Source: Escherichia phage ETEP21B | Strand: one strand, 5' to 3' | Sequence record: OR979722.1 | Length of the DNA: 39,424 nucleotides | In this document: positions 1-39,424 of the stretch, one piece after another | How the letters are laid out: every line of letters starts with the position of its first letter | How positions within the stretch are numbered: position 1 is the stretch's first letter | The notes under the pieces: generated by a model | What the model saw: only the letters and a program-made list of their open reading frames with translations | Told to the model about the DNA's origin: nothing | The model's database searches: none | Translations under genes and position numbers: made by a program

Positions 1-145
1 GTGTTACCACTAGATATGGGGCTTAGGGTGACTTAGTGATACTATATGTGGGCCTCTATGTGTCCCTATCTGTAATCACCTAGAGTCACCACCTAGAGTC
101 ACCACCTAGAGTCACCACCTAGAGTCACCACCTAGAGTCACCACC
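1..145. repeat. Left direct terminal repeat (DTR); identical to 39280-39424. True repeat probably extends to about 184 because the right copy is cut by the window end
   Basis: Exact match of window start to window end read by eye; core GTGTCCCTATCTGT resembles the T7 terminal-repeat sequence. Confidence 0.85.
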
Positions 146-15279: not shown

Positions 15280-15615
15280 ATGGGAGGCGTTACTACGCTT
15301 AGGTTTCACACTATGCCGACTGGCTGTGTCGTCTGCGTCTCCCATAAGAGGAACAAAGATGGTTACTTCCGGTACAGCGTAGGGTCATCCAGAAAGGGTG
15401 AGAAGATGGCGTTTATGTTCCACCGATTCGTGTGGGAGAACGTCAACGGAAAGATACCAGAAGGGTATGAGATAGACCATCTATGCCTAAACCGTGGGTG
15501 CTGTAACGTAGAGCACCTACAGTGTATCCCCAAGCGGGAACATGTAATCAAGACTAACCGAGAGCGGAAGGTCATCACATTGAAAGCAAAGGAGAAATAT
15601 CATGGCTATTACTAA
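15280..15615 (+). CDS. HNH endonuclease (homing-endonuclease-like), 111 aa
   Basis: HNH motif EIDHLCLNRGCCNVEHLQ with upstream HRFVWE; GAGGAGG RBS; lies between DNA polymerase and gene 5.5. Confidence 0.8.
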   Translation: MGGVTTLRFHTMPTGCVVCVSHKRNKDGYFRYSVGSSRKGEKMAFMFHRFVWENVNGKIPEGYEIDHLCLNRGCCNVEHLQCIPKREHVIKTNRERKVITLKAKEKYHGYY

Positions 15616-25317: not shown

Positions 25318-25731
25318 ATGTTAATAATCAGACCTACCAAAGAATCAGACTTCGGGAGATTCACACCATCACCTGAAGACATCGCTGAGGCAAAAGCCTA
25401 CGGGATTGAACCATCATTTCCACCAGCTAACGAGTGCGTCACTATGTCACTTCATGGTATGCCAGTGGCTATCGGTGGTAATTGTGGCGACCAAGTGTGG
25501 TTCGTAACGTCCGCTCGTGTCTGGAAACTAAGTATGAAGACCCGAAGAGAGTTCCGAAAGCTCATTCTGGAGTATCGTGATACCATGCTCAAACAGTATC
25601 CGATTATCTGGAACTACGTTTGGGTTGGCAATAAGTCCCACATTAGGTTCTTGAAGTCTATTGGTGCGGTGTTCCATAATGAGTTTACTGGCGACAGTAA
25701 TCAATTCCAACTATTCACTATAGGAGGTTAA
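25318..25731 (+). CDS. 13: Internal virion protein gp13, 137 aa
   Basis: Position, size and AAGGAG RBS as T7 gene 13. Confidence 0.8.
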   Translation: MLIIRPTKESDFGRFTPSPEDIAEAKAYGIEPSFPPANECVTMSLHGMPVAIGGNCGDQVWFVTSARVWKLSMKTRREFRKLILEYRDTMLKQYPIIWNYVWVGNKSHIRFLKSIGAVFHNEFTGDSNQFQLFTIGG

Positions 25732-32608: not shown

Positions 32609-32631
32609 CAATACGACTCACTATTGGGAAG
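32609..32631 (+). promoter_or_regulatory. Phage RNAP promoter (phi17-like), CAATACGACTCACTATTGGGAAG
   Basis: Consensus match directly after gene 16 stop. Confidence 0.85.
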
Positions 32632-32677: not shown

Positions 32678-34645
32678 ATGGCTAACAAAATTTCCACTGT
32701 GCGTACTTACCCACTTAATGGTGCCGTGAACTTCACAATCACCTTTGAGTATCTGGCCCGTAAGTTCGTGCAAGTAACCCTAATTGGTAAAGACCGTAAG
32801 GAACTGGTACTTAATCAGGACTATCGCTTTACCTCTAAGACGCAAATCACAACCTCTCGTACTTGGACTGCCGCAGATGGCTACCAGATGATTGAGATTC
32901 GTCGATTCACTTCAGCTACTGACCGTCTGGTTGACTTTGCCGATGGCTCTATCCTTCGTGCGTATGACCTGAACATCTCACAGATTCAGACTCTGCACGT
33001 TGCTGAGGAAGCACGAGACCTCACTGCTGATACTATCGGTGTCAACAACGATGGTCACTTAGATGCCCGTGGTCGTAAGATTGTGAACCTTGCGTTCGCT
33101 ACTAATGACTATGATGCTGTCCCTCTGAAGCAGATTAAAGAGCGTGAGACCTCTGCGTGGAATGCTGTTACTAAGGCAAACGAACATGCTGACCGTTCTA
33201 ATCGAGAGGCTAATCGTTCTCGTGATGAGGCTAACCGTGCTCAACGCGAAGCTGACCGTTCAACTCAACAGGCAGGTATCTCTACGGCACAAGCGGTTGA
33301 GTCCAAGAAGCAAGCTGACCGTTCCAACTCTGAGGCTAACCGAGCTAAAGGATATGCTGATAGTATGACCGCAAGTGTCGCTGAGGCCAAGAAGCAAGCT
33401 GACCGTTCCAACTCTGAGGCCAATCGTGCCCGTGATGAGGCCAACCGTGCTGCCGGAGAAGTGACTAAAGCTGCTGCTGAGGTTGCCAAGGCTGCTGCAC
33501 ATGTTGAGACCGCTAAGGGACATGCTGACCGAGCCAACACTGAGGCAAACCGCTCTAAGAGTGAAGCCGACCGTGCAAAGACCGAGGCCGATAAGTTGGG
33601 GAACATGAATGAATTAGCTGAGGCCATCGACAGGGTTGATGCTCCTGATGTTTACTTCAAGAGGAATGTTGTCGCCGGACACAGATTGGAGACTTCTGGA
33701 GGATCACATCTTCACCCTAATGAGATTAAATTGGTTAACAATAAATCTCCAGACCAGCACTTCATTGTACAGGCGTGGGGAACTGGAGACCCTAATGATA
33801 GGTCGCAGGTGTTTGAGTTAAAGGATAACTTGGGTCCGTACGCATTCTATATCCAGCGCCAGAAGAAGACAGACCAAACTTGGCAAATGAGTGTGAACGG
33901 TACTGTTAGCTGCGTATCCATCGAGGCTGGCAAGGGTTTCATCTCTAAGGACCGTACAGGCTCCATTCAGATGAAGACTTGGGGAGGTAGTTGGGGCCAA
34001 TGGACTTCTAATGCTGTTCCTGACATTCAGCACGATATTGAGGCCCAACATGATGCTGCTTATCTTCTGGAGAGGGCTACCATTTGGGGTAAGGAGCATT
34101 TATACGCAAAACAACTGTACAACAATGGCACTGGCGCAAACTTCTTTATCAGACACTATCTCCGTGGGACTTACTTTGACTTCCGCTCTGATGGTACTCT
34201 TATCAGTTCCACCGGATGGAATATCCCGGCAGATGGTAACCTGTACATCAAGAAATATGGAACGTATATTGACGCATGGGTAAACAAGCGCCTAAGCGAA
34301 CATGCCTACAACAAGAGCGAGACAAACAACCTAGTGAATGGTCGATTGACACAAGCCCAAGCTGATGGGCGATACGTCCGTAAGAATGCGGGGTGGACTG
34401 AAGTGTGGAAAGGAAGCGCTGGCGGTGGTACCTCGGTAGGTCTCTCACAGGATGTTCGTTGGAGAACCATCTGGATTCAAACTCAAGGCAGATGGAACCC
34501 TGTTCAGATTGGTGATAATGGTGCTTACTACATCTCGTCGATGGGCGGTTGGTTGCAGTTTACCATCTCGAATAATGGTAGAACATTCCGTAACGATGTG
34601 GATAGAAGCTCTGTTCCTACGAGAATCTTGGTTCAAAACCAATAA
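32678..34645 (+). CDS. 17: Tail fiber protein gp17, 655 aa: conserved N-terminal tail-attachment domain, repetitive Arg/Ala-rich shaft, distinct C-terminal receptor-binding part
   Basis: N-terminal 150 aa collinear with T7 gp17 (FEYLARKFV.VTLIG.DRK, DRLVDF.DGSILRAYDLN..QIQT.HVAEEARDLT.DTIGVNNDGHLDARGR.IVNLA); C-terminus WKGSAGGG.SV..SQD also T7-like; middle differs. Confidence 0.93.
   Translation: MANKISTVRTYPLNGAVNFTITFEYLARKFVQVTLIGKDRKELVLNQDYRFTSKTQITTSRTWTAADGYQMIEIRRFTSATDRLVDFADGSILRAYDLNISQIQTLHVAEEARDLTADTIGVNNDGHLDARGRKIVNLAFATNDYDAVPLKQIKERETSAWNAVTKANEHADRSNREANRSRDEANRAQREADRSTQQAGISTAQAVESKKQADRSNSEANRAKGYADSMTASVAEAKKQADRSNSEANRARDEANRAAGEVTKAAAEVAKAAAHVETAKGHADRANTEANRSKSEADRAKTEADKLGNMNELAEAIDRVDAPDVYFKRNVVAGHRLETSGGSHLHPNEIKLVNNKSPDQHFIVQAWGTGDPNDRSQVFELKDNLGPYAFYIQRQKKTDQTWQMSVNGTVSCVSIEAGKGFISKDRTGSIQMKTWGGSWGQWTSNAVPDIQHDIEAQHDAAYLLERATIWGKEHLYAKQLYNNGTGANFFIRHYLRGTYFDFRSDGTLISSTGWNIPADGNLYIKKYGTYIDAWVNKRLSEHAYNKSETNNLVNGRLTQAQADGRYVRKNAGWTEVWKGSAGGGTSVGLSQDVRWRTIWIQTQGRWNPVQIGDNGAYYISSMGGWLQFTISNNGRTFRNDVDRSSVPTRILVQNQ
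33303..33420 (+). repeat. Two perfect 34-bp direct repeats (CCAAGAAGCAAGCTGACCGTTCCAACTCTGAGGC) 84 bp apart inside gene 17, within a wider degenerate repeat region (about 33180-33600)
   Basis: Exact nucleotide repeat read from sequence; encodes repeated KKQADRSNSEAN blocks. Confidence 0.85.
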
Positions 34646-34689
34646 TGGAATACAACGAGGCCACGGATGGCTGACACTAGGAGGACATA

Positions 34690-34896
34690 ATGTTGTCATT
34701 GGATTTTAACAACGAGGTAGTGAAGGCTGCTCCGATTGTAGGGACAGGGGTTGCCGATGGTGCTGCCAGACTGTTCTTCGGCCTGTCACTTAACGAGTGG
34801 TTTTATGTAGCCGCAATTGCCTACACAGTGGCTCAAATTGGTGCCAAGGTAGTCGATGTGGTTATCAAATGGAAGAAGGAGGGTAAAGATGTCTAA
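34690..34896 (+). CDS. 17.5: Class II holin gp17.5, 68 aa
   Basis: MLSLDFNNE..KAAPIVGTGVAD..ARLFFGLSLNEWFYVAAIAYTV.QIGAKVVD nearly identical in pattern to T7 holin. Confidence 0.95.
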   Translation: MLSLDFNNEVVKAAPIVGTGVADGAARLFFGLSLNEWFYVAAIAYTVAQIGAKVVDVVIKWKKEGKDV

Positions 34897-35158
34897 CGAT
34901 AAATCTTTGATTCAATTCCTTGAGATGCTGGACACTGAGATGGCTCAACGTATGCTGAAAGACCTTCAGGATGACGAGAAGCGAACGCCTCAACTGTACA
35001 ACGCAATCGGGAAGCTGTTAGAACGCCACAAGTTCCAAGTCTCCAAGTTACAGCCAGACCGTAACATCCTTGGTGGACTTGCTGATGGACTTCAGGAGTA
35101 TCAGAACCTCGTAGGTGACGATGGTCTAACTGAAGATGAGAAGTACACGCTGAACTGA
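34889..35158 (+). CDS. 18: Terminase small subunit gp18, 89 aa
   Basis: Position between holin and spanins, size identical to T7 gp18, AGGAGGG RBS. Confidence 0.85.
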   Translation: MSNDKSLIQFLEMLDTEMAQRMLKDLQDDEKRTPQLYNAIGKLLERHKFQVSKLQPDRNILGGLADGLQEYQNLVGDDGLTEDEKYTLN

Positions 35159-35171
35159 TGGAATAACTCAA

Positions 35172-35191
35172 GGCCACTAGATGTAGTGGTC
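35172..35191 (+). promoter_or_regulatory. Hairpin GGCCACTA-GATG-TAGTGGTC in the gene 18 / 18.5 intergenic region (R18.5-like RNase III site or attenuator)
   Basis: 8-bp stem with one G-U pair; no following T-run, so probably not a terminator; T7 has R18.5 here. Confidence 0.4.
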
Positions 35192-35256
35192 TTTATGATA
35201 TTTCAACACAACTCACGGTGACGCTACGTGAAATCTGAAAATACGGGAGGGTAGTT

Positions 35257-35697
35257 ATGCTCAAGAATTTAAAGAGCTACGCCATAATTGCTGCGTTTGC
35301 CTTGGGTATTACCCTTGCGTATAACCACGGATATGACAAAGCTAACACTAAATGGGAACAGGAGGTGCACAATGAGTACGTTAAGAAAGTTAAGGCGACT
35401 GAGGATAAACAGGCTGCTATCAACGAAGTCTCACGACAATACCAAGAAGACCTTGCGGCGTTGGAAGGCAGCACTGATAGGGTCATTAATGATTTGCGTA
35501 ACGATGGTAAGCGGCTGCGTGTCAAGCTGTCAAACACCTCACGAGAACTCCAAGCTAACGGTGGATGCCTCGCTGATGGTCGAGCCGAACTTGACGAAGA
35601 GTTTAGTAAGCGTCTTATCGGAGTAACTCAAAGAGGGGATGCGTGGATTAGAGCGCTCCAAGGTACAATAACTGAAATGCAACGTAAGGAGAAATAA
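35257..35697 (+). CDS. 18.5: Inner-membrane spanin (Rz-like, gp18.5), 146 aa
   Basis: N-terminal transmembrane segment, coiled-coil body; T7 gp18.5 position and size. Confidence 0.88.
   Translation: MLKNLKSYAIIAAFALGITLAYNHGYDKANTKWEQEVHNEYVKKVKATEDKQAAINEVSRQYQEDLAALEGSTDRVINDLRNDGKRLRVKLSNTSRELQANGGCLADGRAELDEEFSKRLIGVTQRGDAWIRALQGTITEMQRKEK
35372..35626 (+). CDS. 18.7: Outer-membrane lipoprotein spanin (Rz1-like, gp18.7), 84 aa, fully embedded in gene 18.5 in the +1 frame
   Basis: MSTLRKLR...KKTLRRWKAALIGSLMICVTMVSGC...SLMVEPNLT resembles T7 gp18.7; signal peptide plus Cys lipobox; GGAGGTG RBS. Confidence 0.85.
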   Translation: MSTLRKLRRLRINRLLSTKSHDNTKKTLRRWKAALIGSLMICVTMVSGCVSSCQTPHENSKLTVDASLMVEPNLTKSLVSVLSE

Positions 35698-35698
35698 C

Positions 35699-36256
35699 AT
35701 GGCTACTGTAAACTCAAGAACCCGTACCATCTGGACTATCAATGGTCGCTCACCGGACAGCCGGGATATGTACGACCGAAACAATGTGGGCCTTCGTGTT
35801 GGGCGTATCGACATCCCAGCTTCAGAAATGGTCAAGGTAGATGGCTATGACAAGGTTGAATATGTTGTTCAACTGAGTGACGGCACAACCGAGCAACATG
35901 CTACCTTTGAGACCCTGATGTCCACTTGGGGTGGCTCCGTCGAGTCTAAACCGGGTAGTGGGTTCATGACTGTATTTCTGGATGAGCAAAGCTCTGAGCG
36001 TCTCGGTATGGTTCGAATCGACGTATACAAAGAGTGGACTGGTGCTGACCCTGAACCGGAAGGCGGTATGGATTCGCTAGTTAGTGCAACGCTTTCTGCG
36101 TCTGATAGTGCATTTGGTACACAGTTCGTGGACAGCGAAGGAAAGAGCGCTTCCGTTATGTTCCAGCCTAGTAACATCGACGGGGCTGTATCTAAGACAG
36201 ACACCATCAAGGCTCTGGAGAAGCGCATCGCTGCCTTAGAGAAACCTGCCGAGTAA
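35699..36256 (+). CDS. Hypothetical protein, 185 aa, acidic, no recognisable motif; extra gene between spanins and terminase
   Basis: Clean ORF with AAGGAG 8 nt upstream, start overlapping the 18.5 stop (TAACATG); I recall no gene at this position in T7 or T3. Confidence 0.7.
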   Translation: MATVNSRTRTIWTINGRSPDSRDMYDRNNVGLRVGRIDIPASEMVKVDGYDKVEYVVQLSDGTTEQHATFETLMSTWGGSVESKPGSGFMTVFLDEQSSERLGMVRIDVYKEWTGADPEPEGGMDSLVSATLSASDSAFGTQFVDSEGKSASVMFQPSNIDGAVSKTDTIKALEKRIAALEKPAE

Positions 36257-36271
36257 CAATAGGAGGCCACA

Positions 36272-38032
36272 ATGTCACAATCCCAAGAAGCTAAGAACGC
36301 GCTAATCATTGCGCAACTTAAGGGTGACTTCGTGGCCTTCCTGTTCGTCTTATGGAAGGCTCTGAACTTACCTAAACCAACCAAGTGTCAGATTGATATG
36401 GCACGAACACTCGCTAATGGAGACCACAAGAAGTTTATCCTTCAGGCGTTCCGTGGTATCGGCAAGTCCTTTATCACCTGTGCGTTCGTTGTGTGGGTAT
36501 TATGGCGTGACCCTCAACTTAAGGTGCTCATTGTGTCTGCCTCTAAGGAACGTGCGGATGCTAACTCCATCTTCATCAAGAACATCATCGACCTCTTACC
36601 GTTCCTCTCTGAGTTGAAACCTCGACCGGGACAGCGAGACTCCGTGATTAGCTTTGATGTTGGCTTGGCTAAACCCGACCACTCACCTTCTGTGAAGTCT
36701 GTGGGTATCACTGGTCAGTTGACTGGTAGCCGTGCTGACATCATTATTGCAGATGACGTTGAGGTTCCCGGTAATAGCTCTACGAGTTCTGCCCGTGAGA
36801 AGCTCTGGACGTTGGTAACTGAGTTTGCTGCATTACTTAAGCCGCTGCCTACCTCTCGTGTTATCTACCTTGGGACACCTCAAACCGAGATGACTCTCTA
36901 CAAGGAACTCGAAGATAACAAAGGGTACAGCACCGTAATCTGGCCTGCACAGTATCCACGCAATGATGCTGAGGCTCTCTACTATGGGGACCGCTTGGCT
37001 CCTATGCTGAAGGCTGAGTACGATGAAGGCTTTGAGTTACTCCGTGGTCAACCTACTGACCCTGTTCGATTCGATATGGATGACCTCCGTGAACGTGAAC
37101 TCGAATATGGTAAAGCTGGTTACACTCTTCAGTTCATGCTTAACCCTAACCTTAGTGATGCCGAGAAGTACCCACTACGACTCCGTGACGCTATCGTGTG
37201 CGCTGTGGACCCTGAACGTGCCCCATTGTCTTACCAGTGGTTGCCGAACCGTCAGAACCGCAATGAGGAACTCCCTAACGTTGGTCTGAAGGGTGATGAC
37301 ATTCACAGCTTCCATGTGTGTTCCTCTAAGACCGCTGAGTACCAGCAAAAGATTCTCGTCATTGACCCATCGGGTCGTGGTAAGGATGAAACAGGTTACG
37401 CAGTCCTCTACACCCTTAACGGCTACATCTACTTGATGGAAGTCGGTGGGTTCCGTGGTGGCTACGATGACCCTACCTTAGAGAAGCTCGCTAAGAAGGC
37501 CAAGCAGTGGAAGGTACAGACGGTCGTACACGAGAGTAACTTCGGTGATGGTATGTTCGGTAAGGTATTCTCTCCGGTTCTCCTGAAGCACCACAAGTGT
37601 GCCTTAGAAGAGATTCGTGCTCGTGGCATGAAGGAGATGCGTATCTGCGATACTATCGAACCGTTGATGGGTGCACACCGCCTTATCATCCGTGACGAAG
37701 TAATCCGTGAGGACTACCAGACCGCTCGTGACCTCGATGGGAAACATGATGTTCGCTACAGTGCGTTCTATCAGATGACCCGTATGACTCGCGAGAAGGG
37801 CGCTGTGGCACACGATGACAGACTTGATGCTATCGCATTGGGTATCGAGTTCCTTCGTGAAGGGATGCAGGTGGACTCTAAGGTGGGCGAAGAAGCTATG
37901 ACCCTTGAGTTCCTTGAGCACCACATGGAGAAACCTATCATCGGTGGTGACATGGCTCGTGAGTTAGTGTCTGGCGGCGTGGACATCTACTACGAGGATG
38001 ATGGTGATGGAGAGTGCTTCATTGAGTGGTAA
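36272..38032 (+). CDS. 19: Terminase large subunit gp19 (ATPase/nuclease), 586 aa
   Basis: Collinear with T7 gp19 (same 586 aa; [91 protein letters not shown]-terminal FIEW). Confidence 0.98.
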
Positions 38033-38055
38033 TGACAACTAATTAAGGAGGTAAT

Positions 38056-38505
38056 ATGAGAGTGGCAATTGACCCTATCAGTGGTTGCCACAACTTCCTT
38101 GGGTGTAAGACTTCGGGTGGCTACGGTAGAATCCGTGTAGGTGGTGTCCATTGGATGGCCCACAGATACGCTCTATCAGTTCACCTGAAGCGTCCACTAG
38201 AGGAAGGCTGTGTGGTAATGCACTTATGTGATAACCCTGCCTGTGTTAACCCTGAGCATCTCAGAGAGGGAACTCAGAAGGAGAACATGCAGGACTGTAA
38301 GGACAAGGGAAGGATGCACAAGGCTACAGGCCCTAGAGCACCTCGTCGTCCGTACATCAATAAAATCAACCAGCGATACAATGAGAGACTTAAGGCTGTC
38401 CTTGAGGCCGATGGGTCTGACTTGCAGGTCGCTAAGAAGCTGGGCCTGAACCTACAGTGGGTCAAGAAGGCTCGTAAAGGTAAACTAGTTATGCAAGAAG
38501 TGTGA
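38056..38505 (+). CDS. HNH endonuclease with C-terminal helix-turn-helix-like region, 149 aa
   Basis: Motif GYGRIRVGGVHWMAHRYA...HLCDNPACVNPEHL..GTQKEN; AAGGAGGT RBS; immediately downstream of terminase. Confidence 0.8.
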   Translation: MRVAIDPISGCHNFLGCKTSGGYGRIRVGGVHWMAHRYALSVHLKRPLEEGCVVMHLCDNPACVNPEHLREGTQKENMQDCKDKGRMHKATGPRAPRRPYINKINQRYNERLKAVLEADGSDLQVAKKLGLNLQWVKKARKGKLVMQEV

Positions 38506-38571
38506 ATAGTTAAGCACATCATGAGGCCCTTCCAGTGAACTATAAAAACCTAATGAAATCAAGGGTGTACC

Positions 38572-38594
38572 TAATACGACTCACTATTGGGAAG
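38572..38594 (+). promoter_or_regulatory. Phage RNAP promoter (phiOR-like), TAATACGACTCACTATTGGGAAG
   Basis: Consensus match near the right end, as phiOR in T7. Confidence 0.85.
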
Positions 38595-38750
38595 GGCCCC
38601 CTAAGACAACTTAAAGACACTTAAAGACTGCATATGCAAAGTGCATACTTAGTGACTACTCTTAGAGACCATTACAGTGAGGGATGATGGTAATAGTAAT
38701 TACATCCCTACTATCAGTGTAACCATCAAGTATAACAAGGAGGACGCTCT

Positions 38751-38906
38751 ATGCGCTTACTATCCGTGCTCAAGACACTGGCAACGCATCGAGTGACTTA
38801 CAAATTTCTCGTTGTACTTGCTGCTTCCATTGGTCTCGCATCTAGTGCTGAACACATCGGTGAACTGGAGACTCTGCTTTGTTCTCTACTCACTTGTGTT
38901 CCTTAG
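38751..38906 (+). CDS. 19.5: gp19.5-like small hydrophobic protein, 51 aa (not in ORF track)
   Basis: AAGGAGGA 6 nt upstream of ATG; last gene before the right end, as T7 gene 19.5. Confidence 0.55.
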   Translation: MRLLSVLKTLATHRVTYKFLVVLAASIGLASSAEHIGELETLLCSLLTCVP

Positions 38907-39279
38907 ACTGCTCATCGGCGCTTAGTGCGCTCTTAGTGATAATGGTCGATATACATCTTCCCTATTATCACTGTAAGAAGTCAACTCTAAGAGTAACCCT
39001 TATGTACCCTATGGTCTACAGGGTCTCTTAGGGTCTCTCACGTAGTCTCACCGCTATGCTCCTGCGTAGCACCTTATGATAGCCACCCTGTGGTGAACCT
39101 TATGAGACTTGATGTACCCTTTAAGAATCCTACAGAAAATCTGAGTGGGTATCTCATAGTTCATACAAAGTGTTTCCCCCCCCTATGGCCTCCTTCAGTC
39201 CACTCAAAGAGTGCCACCCTATGGTAACTTATGGTTTACTTAATGTCAATCCTTATATGTGACATTGGGTTAACTCTAG

Positions 39280-39424
39280 GTGTTACCACTAGATATGGGG
39301 CTTAGGGTGACTTAGTGATACTATATGTGGGCCTCTATGTGTCCCTATCTGTAATCACCTAGAGTCACCACCTAGAGTCACCACCTAGAGTCACCACCTA
39401 GAGTCACCACCTAGAGTCACCACC
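39280..39424. repeat. Right direct terminal repeat (truncated by window end), includes at least 5 copies of the 13-bp tandem unit from 39356
   Basis: Exact identity to 1-145. Confidence 0.85.

What the first reader, a model, noticed from the sequence alone, without database searches (positions are those of the whole stretch)
35699..36256. Unrecognised 185-aa gene inserted between the spanin cassette and the large terminase
In T7 and T3 as I recall them, gene 19 follows 18.5/18.7 directly. Here a well-formed 558-bp ORF sits in between, with a strong Shine-Dalgarno (AAGGAG, 8-nt spacing) and a start overlapping the gene 18.5 stop (TAACATG), so it is almost certainly translated from the late transcript. 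The acidic product has no motif I recognise and no transmembrane segment. It uses codons (AGA, TCA, CTA, TTA) that the capsid gene completely avoids, which hints at recent horizontal acquisition. It could be an anti-defence or host-takeover factor, or a packaging accessory.
Basis: partly seen in the sequence, partly recalled or inferred. Interest (0 to 1): 0.75.

Follow-up and report, generated by a model that had tools for sequence, protein, structure and literature searches.

The report
Optional fibre-like gene before T7-type terminase
The 185-codon gene is real and almost certainly expressed, but it is a known, uncharacterised optional gene of BA14/Berlin-type T7 relatives, most likely a small dispensable virion-surface fibre or decoration protein rather than a recent foreign import.

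Summary
The ORF at 35699-36256 (+) exists as described. It has an AAGGAG ribosome-binding site, starts one base after the gp18.5 stop, and lies inside the late phi17 transcription unit. Eight orthologues give dN/dS 0.13, so it is a functional gene.

It is not unrecognised. The window is a complete Berlinvirus genome, and the ORF is a full-length member of PHROG 20446 (E 4.5e-123). It is annotated "hypothetical" in 57 phage records, always between Rz (18.5) and the large terminase (19).

About 24 other Berlinvirus isolates lack it cleanly (18.5 TAATG 19), and phage Carena keeps only a 75-aa remnant. It is therefore dispensable.

The codon-usage hint of recent transfer fails: CAI is 0.678 against a gene range of 0.54-0.80, and GC is 0.51 against 0.49.

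The family is tiny (28 clusters among 1.84 billion representatives). Members share a conserved ~120-aa N-terminal beta domain with no Pfam or PDB match, a DPEPE hinge, a swappable middle and a short C-terminal heptad helix.

In paralogues the middle is genuine tail-fibre material: a T7 gp17-like hinge and shaft, or a domain shared with prophage tail fibres.

Best reading (about 0.45): an accessory virion-surface mini-fibre or decoration protein. Virion presence is untested.

The parts
35699..36256 (+). Gene X: 185-aa ORF, orthologue of BA14 AS7_0050 / PhiV-1 QLF85797 / FE44 U5P467; member of phrog_20446
   Evidence: dN/dS 0.13
35686..35691 (+). Shine-Dalgarno AAGGAG for gene X, 7-nt spacer to the ATG; lies inside the last codons of gene 18.5
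   Evidence: read directly from the sequence
35699..36064 (+). Conserved N-terminal domain (aa 1-122): seven beta strands and one helix, pLDDT about 81-90. It is the part shared by all family members. I propose it is the virion anchor (inference).
   Evidence: no Pfam/NCBIfam hit; no PDB fold match
36047..36061 (+). DPEPE hinge (aa 117-121), invariant in alignment A1; analogous in position to the ADP-E-D-DAV hinge that ends the gp17 N-terminal domain
36065..36253 (+). Variable C-terminal part (aa 123-185): a short three-strand beta meander, then a helix at aa 158-181 carrying the conserved heptads IKALEKR IAALEKP. I propose it is an oligomerisation element (inference).
   Evidence: weak matches to designed three-stranded coiled coils only
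35257..35697 (+). Gene 18.5 (Rz-type i-spanin), immediately upstream
   Evidence: PF03245; BA14 annotation
35372..35626 (+). Gene 18.7 (o-spanin, 84 aa, lipobox-like TMVSGC), embedded in 18.5 in another reading frame
   Evidence: position by homology to the BA14 annotation
36272..38032 (+). Gene 19, large terminase, with its own AGGAGG at 36261-36266
   Evidence: PF22530 and PF03237
32609..32631 (+). Phage RNA-polymerase promoter phi17, the nearest promoter upstream of gene X (exact match to BA14 phi17)
38572..38594 (+). Promoter phiOR, the next phage promoter downstream; none lies between phi17 and phiOR

Best explanation
Gene X encodes a dispensable, late-expressed accessory virion protein: a small fibre or decoration protein.

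- The conserved ~120-aa N-terminal beta domain would dock the protein onto the particle, at a site other than the gp17 socket.
- The acidic DPEPE hinge would lead into an exposed distal part. Across the family this part is swapped for different tail-fibre modules. In this phage it is reduced to a short beta meander.
- The conserved C-terminal heptad helix would act as the oligomerisation nucleus, probably for a trimer.
- Its likely role is auxiliary adhesion to cell surfaces or environmental matrices, or particle stabilisation. It is not essential for infection.

**Shown:** the gene is real, constrained, in the late operon, fixed in position, optional, and belongs to a modular family that uses tail-fibre modules.

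**Inferred:** virion association, anchoring by the N-domain, oligomeric state and adhesive role.
For: **1. The architecture parallels fibre proteins.**
- The N-domain is conserved (dN/dS 0.096) and is followed by an invariant hinge and a hypervariable middle.

**2. Paralogues that share the N-domain carry genuine tail-fibre modules.**
- P0015 residues 114-219 match phrog_4242 'tail fiber protein' at positions 140-245, E 5.5e-9, and also phrog_9502 and phrog_8713.
- The P0015 hinge ADPEADPDAVDLHTVKQW aligns with ADPVEDGDAVNLYTFKSF at residue 139 of the gp17 encoded in the same contig.
- The 256-aa Yersinia form P0007 matches phrog_6578 'tail fiber'.
- P0007 residues 123-218 are 32% identical to a domain of a prophage tail fibre that also carries PF08400, PF20744 and PF25670, E 4e-12.
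- The family profile hits long fibre and spike proteins carrying Peptidase_S74.

**3. The C-terminal heptad helix is retained across different middles.**
- It is tandemly duplicated in P0004.

**4. Expression is late**, from the same transcript as gp17, the holin and the terminase.

**5. The gene is dispensable, as accessory fibres and decoration proteins are.**
- About 24 Berlinvirus isolates lack it.
- Carena carries an in-frame remnant, and locus L022 carries a split copy.

**6. It is confined to T7-type phages that have a PF03906 tail fibre, always at the same locus**.
Against: - The window's own protein lacks the fibre modules on which the inference rests. Only a ~35-aa meander and about two heptads remain, modelled at pLDDT around 60.
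- I found no virion proteomics or cryo-EM evidence for any family member.
- The gene lies among lysis and packaging genes, outside the 6.7-17 structural block.
- The N-domain shows no sequence or fold similarity to the gp17 anchor (hhalign probability 1.4%) or to any solved decoration or fibre protein (best Foldseek E 0.04, TM below 0.35).
- To my knowledge, no free docking site is known on T7-type particles.
- According to Harbury's GCN4 rules (my own knowledge), heptads with Ile at position a and Leu at position d do not specifically indicate trimers.
Confidence: 0.45

Rival explanations
1. Gene X encodes a soluble, non-virion late protein that acts on the host, for example as an anti-defence factor, a decoy or a host-takeover factor.
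For: - It is acidic (pI 4.65), small and has no known domain.
- It is optional and patchily distributed among near-identical genomes, as many counter-defence genes are.
- It sits directly upstream of the large terminase, a known trigger of the Avs and Upx sensors.
Against: - It is expressed from the late phi17 unit rather than early.
- Paralogues carry tail-fibre shaft and knob modules, which is hard to reconcile with an intracellular inhibitor.
- PhiV-1 carries a 96% identical orthologue yet is still restricted by EcAvs2, SeAvs3, SeUpx and HpUpx. In the PhiV-1 genome-wide co-expression screens only the terminase scored (PMC13601566).
- Codon usage gives no sign of foreign origin.
Confidence: 0.25
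2. Gene X encodes a lysis or DNA-packaging accessory that works with Rz/Rz1 or with the terminase. Its fixed position and tight translational linkage would reflect that partnership.
For: - The order Rz, X, large terminase is invariant in every context examined, including distant metagenomic members.
- There is a 1-nt gap after the 18.5 stop and 15 nt before gene 19.
Against: - It has no transmembrane segment, signal peptide or lipobox.
- It has no similarity to terminase or spanin families.
- About 24 Berlinviruses with 95-97% identical 18.5 and 19 lyse and package without it.
- A variable middle made of fibre modules is unexpected for such a role.
Confidence: 0.12
3. Gene X encodes a tail-fibre assembly or capping factor. 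It would help gp17 trimerise or attach and then leave, or modulate how fibres are deployed.
For: - It shares hinge, shaft and knob modules with fibres.
- It co-occurs strictly with PF03906-type gp17.
Against: - It is separated from gene 17 by the holin, small terminase and spanin genes.
- Non-carrier phages with closely related gp17 assemble fibres without it.
- T7 gp17 needs no chaperone (established knowledge).
- The window protein itself has no detectable similarity to its own gp17.
Confidence: 0.08
4. Gene X is a functionless passenger or a decaying remnant of a larger fibre gene.
For: - This is the shortest architecture in the family.
- Phage Carena and locus L022 show ongoing decay.
- Many relatives lack the gene.
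Against: - dN/dS is 0.13 across eight intact 185-aa orthologues from phages of E. coli, Salmonella, Enterobacter and Erwinia.
- Those orthologues show no frameshifts or length changes.
Confidence: 0.05

Closest known systems
phrog_20446: 'hypothetical protein' of Escherichia phages BA14 (ACF15774.1), PhiV-1 (QLF85797.1), 285P, P483, S523, CarlSpitteler and nasanit; Erwinia phage FE44 (U5P467); Salmonella phage BSP161; Enterobacter phage PZJ0206
   Same: - Full length at 185 aa.
- 91-96% amino-acid identity.
- Identical locus between 18.5 and 19.
   Different: Nothing of substance. The window copy is simply a new allele in a Berlinvirus genome that is about 92% identical to PhiV-1. None of these proteins has been characterised.
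phrog_27102 and the 201-300-aa paralogues of Yersinia phages (Berlin, Yepe2, Yep-phi, YpP-G, PYPS50, vB_YpP_T3, Altay-2017), Erwinia phage pEa_SNUABM_57 and Helsettvirus YpEc11
   Same: - The same N-terminal domain, 56-64% identical over aa 4-121.
- The same DPEPE hinge.
- The same locus.
- Often the same C-terminal ALEKRIAALE helix.
   Different: The middle and C-terminal modules are replaced. The replacements are a knob-like domain shared with long tail fibres, a gp17-like shaft, or modules ending in '...LKxALGI'.
T7 gp17 tail fibre (PF03906 N-terminal anchor, then hinge, trimeric shaft and tip)
   Same: - The same design logic: a globular N-domain of about 120-150 aa, an acidic hinge, then fibre modules.
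- Paralogue P0015 carries a gp17-type hinge and shaft.
   Different: - The N-domain is not homologous (hhalign probability 1.4%; no PF03906 hit).
- The window protein has no shaft and no receptor-binding tip.
- It is 185 aa, against 655 aa for the gp17 of the same genome.
Dispensable accessory fibres and decoration proteins of other phages: T4 fibritin (Wac) with its C-terminal foldon, phi29 head fibre gp8.5, T5 pb10, T4 Hoc. This comparison rests on my own knowledge, not on a test made here.
   Same: - Non-essential.
- An anchor domain plus an exposed module.
- In fibritin, a short C-terminal element nucleates trimerisation.
   Different: - I detected no sequence or fold similarity to any solved phage decoration or fibre protein.
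- Virion location and oligomeric state are untested here.
Uncharacterised proteins of Klebsiella phage vB_KpnP_Sibilus (A0A5B9NKC0, 205 aa) and Dickeya phage Dagda (A0A2S1GSI5)
   Same: The predicted fold resembles that of the N-domain: Sibilus E 5.4e-5 with TM 0.63, Dagda E 0.013 with TM 0.54. Both proteins are about 205 aa long.
   Different: - Only 15-21% identity.
- Function unknown.
- I did not check their genomic position in those two phages. The 205-aa metagenomic members P0040 and P0041 do sit between Rz and the terminase.

Membership tests
phrog_20446 / phrog_27102 (uncharacterised T7-like phage proteins) | Significant full-length match to the family profile | tested here: met
   phrog_20446: E 4.5e-123 over 1-185 of a 185-position profile. 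phrog_27102: E 1.3e-46 over aa 4-123.
phrog_20446 / phrog_27102 (uncharacterised T7-like phage proteins) | Conserved locus between the Rz-type spanin gene (18.5) and the large terminase gene (19) | tested here: met
   All annotated records and all metagenomic contigs examined show this order.
T7-type tail fibre (gp17) | PF03906 N-terminal tail-attachment domain | tested here: not met
   - No Pfam hit.
- hhalign of the family profile against a gp17 N-domain profile gives probability 1.4%.
- Against the single gp17 sequence of this genome the probability is 0.1%.
- No T7 tail-fibre chain appears among the 50 best Foldseek PDB matches, none of which is significant.
T7-type tail fibre (gp17) | Trimeric coiled-coil shaft and C-terminal receptor-binding tip | tested here: not met
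   The window protein matches no tail-fibre PHROG. Only the paralogues P0015 and P0007 do.
Virion decoration or accessory fibre proteins (Hoc, Soc, gpD, Dec, pb10, phi29 gp8.5, fibritin) | Physical presence on purified particles | not testable with these tools
   I found no proteomic or cryo-EM data for any carrier phage in the literature searched. The Yep-phi proteomics paper is not held in the library.
Virion decoration or accessory fibre proteins (Hoc, Soc, gpD, Dec, pb10, phi29 gp8.5, fibritin) | Sequence or fold similarity to a solved member | tested here: not met
   - Foldseek against the PDB gave no match at E <= 0.001 for the full-length model or the N-domain model.
- HMM searches against PDB sequences gave only weak matches to designed coiled coils, E 0.3-1.
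Virion decoration or accessory fibre proteins (Hoc, Soc, gpD, Dec, pb10, phi29 gp8.5, fibritin) | Dispensable for plaque formation | tested here: met
   Natural variants lack the gene or carry a truncated copy while their flanks are 95-98% identical: ErnstBeyeler, JSS1, JSS2, A7, P694, Kvp1 and others, plus the Carena remnant.
Ocr-type DNA mimics and other early anti-restriction proteins | Early expression, extreme acidity and a match to PF08684 or similar | tested here: not met
   - It lies in the late transcription unit.
- pI is 4.65, only moderately acidic.
- It has no Pfam hit.
Spanin or lysis accessory proteins | Transmembrane segment, signal peptide or lipobox | tested here: not met
   The maximum 19-residue hydropathy is 0.75 and there is no Cys.
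Homing-endonuclease or other mobile cassette | A nuclease domain, or a foreign compositional signature | tested here: not met
   - No nuclease domain.
- GC 0.509 against 0.491 for the window; CAI mid-range.
- The genuine HNH gene lies elsewhere, at 38056-38505.

The most novel reading that the evidence does not exclude
Gene X and its relatives would form an unrecognised class of modular, optional mini-fibres in T7-type phages.

- They would be built on a new anchor fold that docks at a virion site distinct from the gp17 socket.
- The distal cassette would be exchanged with tail-fibre genes.
- This would add a second, tunable adhesion layer and a natural display scaffold to a particle long thought to carry only six gp17 fibres.
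Probability: 0.35. Interest if true: 0.5.

Novelty: new member of a known kind. Interest (0 to 1): 0.35.

Why it matters
T7-type phages are the best-understood podoviruses and are workhorses for phage display, engineering and therapy. Their particle is usually treated as a closed parts list.

If this optional gene encodes an extra surface protein with a new anchor domain and swappable fibre modules, three things would follow:
- It would add a component to that parts list.
- It could explain some differences in host range or persistence among near-identical Berlinviruses.
- It would offer a naturally dispensable scaffold for display.

If the protein is not in the virion, it remains one of the few conserved late genes of this group with no assigned role. 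Either way, the practical value of this check is to correct the record. The gene is known but uncharacterised, and it is not a recent foreign import.

Tried and rejected
**Family and motif searches**
- Pfam, NCBIfam and PHROG scans of the ORF and of family members gave no functional family. The only matches were the two 'unknown function' PHROGs, plus tail-fibre PHROGs for the paralogues.

**Structure searches**
- HMM searches against PDB sequences returned only insignificant matches to designed coiled coils.
- Foldseek of the full model and of the N-domain model against the PDB returned nothing significant.
- Foldseek against BFVD returned only uncharacterised phage proteins.

**Homology to the gp17 anchor**
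- BLASTP and two hhalign runs rejected homology of the N-domain to the gp17 anchor.

**Codon and GC test for recent transfer**
- The ORF is not an outlier.

**Searching with the C-terminal 64 aa alone**
- Only the Carena remnant came back, so this was uninformative.

**Scan of IMG/VR viral contigs**
- It returned only the already known isolates. A first attempt with the broad alignment A4 failed because it had no conserved stretch to search with.

**Literature**
- I found no paper discussing this gene.
- The Yep-phi proteomics paper is not held in the library.
- The Avs2/Upx paper shows only that PhiV-1, a carrier, is still restricted, and that only its terminase acts as a trigger. Its supplements are not held.

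**RNA elements**
- The Rfam scan of 34600-39424 found nothing.

**Antisense ORF**
- I dismissed the 171-aa antisense ORF at 35869-36384. The genome is transcribed on one strand only, and the substitution pattern fits the + frame.

**Considered but not run**
- I considered correlating gene X presence with capsid or tail protein variants across Berlinviruses.
- Recent losses would leave the docking site intact, so I expected little signal.

Full report
**1. Observation**

The window is a complete T7-like genome of 39,424 bp. It has 145-bp exact direct terminal repeats. Its closest relative is Escherichia phage PhiV-1, genus Berlinvirus, at about 92% nucleotide identity over 97% of the first 25 kb.

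The ORF at 35699-36256 (+) is present exactly as described:
- It has an ATG start, encodes 185 aa and ends in TAA.
- AAGGAG lies at 35686-35691, 7 nt before the start codon.
- The gp18.5 stop is at 35695-35697. One base follows, then the ATG, so the genes abut rather than overlap.
- Gene 19 starts 15 nt after the stop and has its own AGGAGG.

The neighbours are confirmed by Pfam: gp17 (PF03906), holin, gp18, Rz-type gp18.5, large terminase, and an HNH endonuclease after gene 19.

Phage promoters matching the annotated BA14 promoters lie at 32609-32631 (phi17) and 38572-38594 (phiOR), with none between them. The ORF is therefore inside the late transcription unit. The generic terminator scan reports one terminator-like stem-loop inside that unit, at 35170-35193 between genes 18 and 18.5, and nothing between the ORF and gene 19.

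The product is acidic (pI 4.65), has no Cys and has no hydrophobic segment.

**2. Is it a real gene?**

Yes. Eight full-length orthologues are all exactly 185 codons long. They give dN/dS 0.13, with 0.096 for residues 1-122 and 0.24 for residues 123-185. No Rfam family matches the region. The long antisense ORF is spurious.

**3. It is not unrecognised**

The protein matches phrog_20446 end to end (E 4.5e-123), and its first 120 residues match phrog_27102. Both families are labelled 'unknown function'.
- Megablast finds the gene at 89-94% identity in 17 records (12 phages; five are listed under both GenBank and RefSeq accessions): PhiV-1, CarlSpitteler, FE44, P483, 285P, S523, PZJ0206, BSP161, BA14, nasanit and part of Carena.
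- tblastn finds relatives in 57 of 50,697 phage records. Most of the rest are Yersinia phages, including Berlin, Yepe2, Yep-phi, YpP-G and PYPS50.
- Every copy is annotated 'hypothetical' or 'unknown product', and every copy sits between 18.5 and 19.
- An exhaustive profile search of 1.84 billion representative proteins found only 28 relatives at E <= 0.001.
- All metagenomic contigs examined show the same order: Rz, X, large terminase.

**4. The gene is optional**

About 24 distinct Berlinvirus isolates have gene 19 joined directly to 18.5 by TAATG. They include ErnstBeyeler, JSS1, JSS2, vB_CECAV_058, A7, P694, Kvp1 and PP74.

The window's flanks are as similar to non-carriers as to carriers:

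| Phage | Carries gene X | Identity in 18.5 | Identity in the 5' part of 19 |
|---|---|---|---|
| JSS1 | no | 97.6% | 96.8% |
| BA14 | yes | 94.3% | 93.5% |

Presence or absence is therefore shuffled by recombination or repeated loss.

Carena retains a 75-aa in-frame remnant made of aa 1-42 joined to the last 33 residues. One metagenomic copy is split.

Gene X itself is more divergent (89.6-93.9%) than its flanks.

**5. The horizontal-transfer hint fails**

- The capsid gene does avoid AGA, TCA, CTA and TTA, but it is the most codon-optimised gene in the window (CAI 0.797).
- The ORF has CAI 0.678 within a range of 0.54-0.80, and 3.2% of its codons are the four rare ones. Both values are ordinary for this genome.
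- Its GC and GC3 (0.51 and 0.51) are ordinary too.
- The gene that does stand out by this measure is the HNH endonuclease, with 8.1% rare codons including six AGA.

**6. Anatomy of the family**

Alignments show four parts:

(a) A conserved N-terminal domain of about 120 aa.
- Its near-invariant motifs are GR.PDSRD, GRIDIP, GYSKVEY, ESK.GSG.MTVF and IDVYKEW.
- AlphaFold models it as seven strands and one helix. The domain-only model has pLDDT 80.8 and pTM 0.72.

(b) An invariant acidic hinge, DPEPE.

(c) A hypervariable middle.

(d) A short C-terminal helix in most members, with the heptads IKALEKR IAALEKP. It is duplicated in P0004.

The N-domain has no Pfam or NCBIfam match. It has no significant Foldseek match in the PDB: the best is E 0.04 with TM below 0.35. 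In BFVD it matches only uncharacterised phage proteins, namely the FE44 orthologue, Klebsiella phage Sibilus and Dickeya phage Dagda.

**7. What the variable modules are**

In paralogues they are tail-fibre parts.
- P0015 residues 114-219 match tail-fibre PHROGs at profile positions 140-245 (E 5.5e-9). That is the hinge and shaft that follow the gp17 anchor.
- The P0015 hinge aligns with the hinge of the gp17 encoded in the same contig and with the window's gp17.
- The knob-like domain of the 250-aa forms matches phrog_6578 'tail fiber'.
- That domain is 32% identical to a domain of a prophage tail fibre (E 4e-12), and it occurs in fibre and spike proteins carrying Peptidase_S74.
- Other members end in '...LKxALGI' modules.
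- The N-domain is not a diverged gp17 anchor: hhalign gives probability 1.4%.

**8. Mechanism**

The most economical reading is an accessory virion-surface protein built like a miniature fibre.
- The conserved N-domain would be the anchor.
- The hinge would lead to an exchangeable distal module.
- The C-terminal helix would be the oligomerisation nucleus.
- The protein is dispensable, as accessory fibres and decoration proteins of other phages are.

In this window the distal module is minimal, so the protein may be little more than a decorating knob or whisker.

The inferred steps are virion association, the docking site, the oligomeric state and any adhesive role. I found no proteomic or structural data on any carrier phage.

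Rivals:
- *Soluble late effector, including anti-defence.* PhiV-1, a carrier, is still restricted by Avs2, Avs3 and Upx, and only its terminase triggers them (PMC13601566).
- *Lysis or packaging accessory.* This is suggested by the fixed locus, but the protein has no membrane features and many relatives do without it.
- *Fibre assembly factor.*
- *Neutral passenger.* dN/dS 0.13 contradicts this.

**9. Verdict**

It overstates novelty, and the codon evidence for recent acquisition is wrong.

The gene is a new allele of a known, small, uncharacterised family specific to T7-type phages of Enterobacterales. Its modular, fibre-like architecture is a modestly interesting and testable lead.

Noticed in passing
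window 38056-38505 (+): A 149-aa HNH homing endonuclease (PF13392 plus the zinc-binding loop of homing endonucleases) lies directly after gene 19 and before promoter phiOR. BA14 has no annotated gene there. A similar HNH follows the terminase in metagenomic locus L023. It has the highest share of AGA/TCA/CTA/TTA codons in the genome (8.1%, six AGA), so this gene, not gene X, carries the foreign codon signature.
   Followed up: partly
window 1-145 and 39280-39424; tandem repeat at 39356-39424: The window is a whole genome with 145-bp exact direct terminal repeats. The repeat contains 5.3 copies of a perfect 13-bp tandem unit, CACCTAGAGTCAC.
   Followed up: partly
window 35170-35193 (+): A 10-bp stem-loop followed by a T-rich tail lies between gene 18 and gene 18.5. 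The scan flags it as terminator-like. Its position corresponds to the T7 R18.5 RNase III site (my own knowledge). I did not examine it further.
   Followed up: no
L005 901-1128 (Escherichia phage Carena); L022 5827-6582: Natural decay of gene X. Carena keeps a 75-aa in-frame fusion of the first 42 and last 33 residues. One metagenomic T7-like contig has the gene split into a 34-aa piece and a 193-aa piece.
   Followed up: partly
protein P0004 (208 aa, metagenomic): The C-terminal unit 'NIDGAV..T.TIKALEKR..ALE' is tandemly duplicated in this family member. This suggests the helix unit behaves like a fibre repeat.
   Followed up: no
window 32678-34645 (+), gp17: The tail-fibre shaft carries many near-repeats of the motif ADRSN(S/R)EANR. 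The ORF finder extends gene 17 upstream to a TTG at 32624, which overlaps the phi17 promoter and is probably not the real start.
   Followed up: no
window 15280-15615 and 25318-25731 (+): These two genes have the lowest codon adaptation in the genome (CAI 0.54 and 0.60), well below gene X. I did not identify them.
   Followed up: no
window 35640-35700 compared with L003 and L004: The last codons of gp18.5 differ between phages that carry gene X (...QRKEK*) and those that lack it (...QTKKEAK*). This stretch doubles as the ribosome-binding site of whichever gene follows, so the insertion or deletion boundary lies inside the 18.5 C-terminus.
   Followed up: partly
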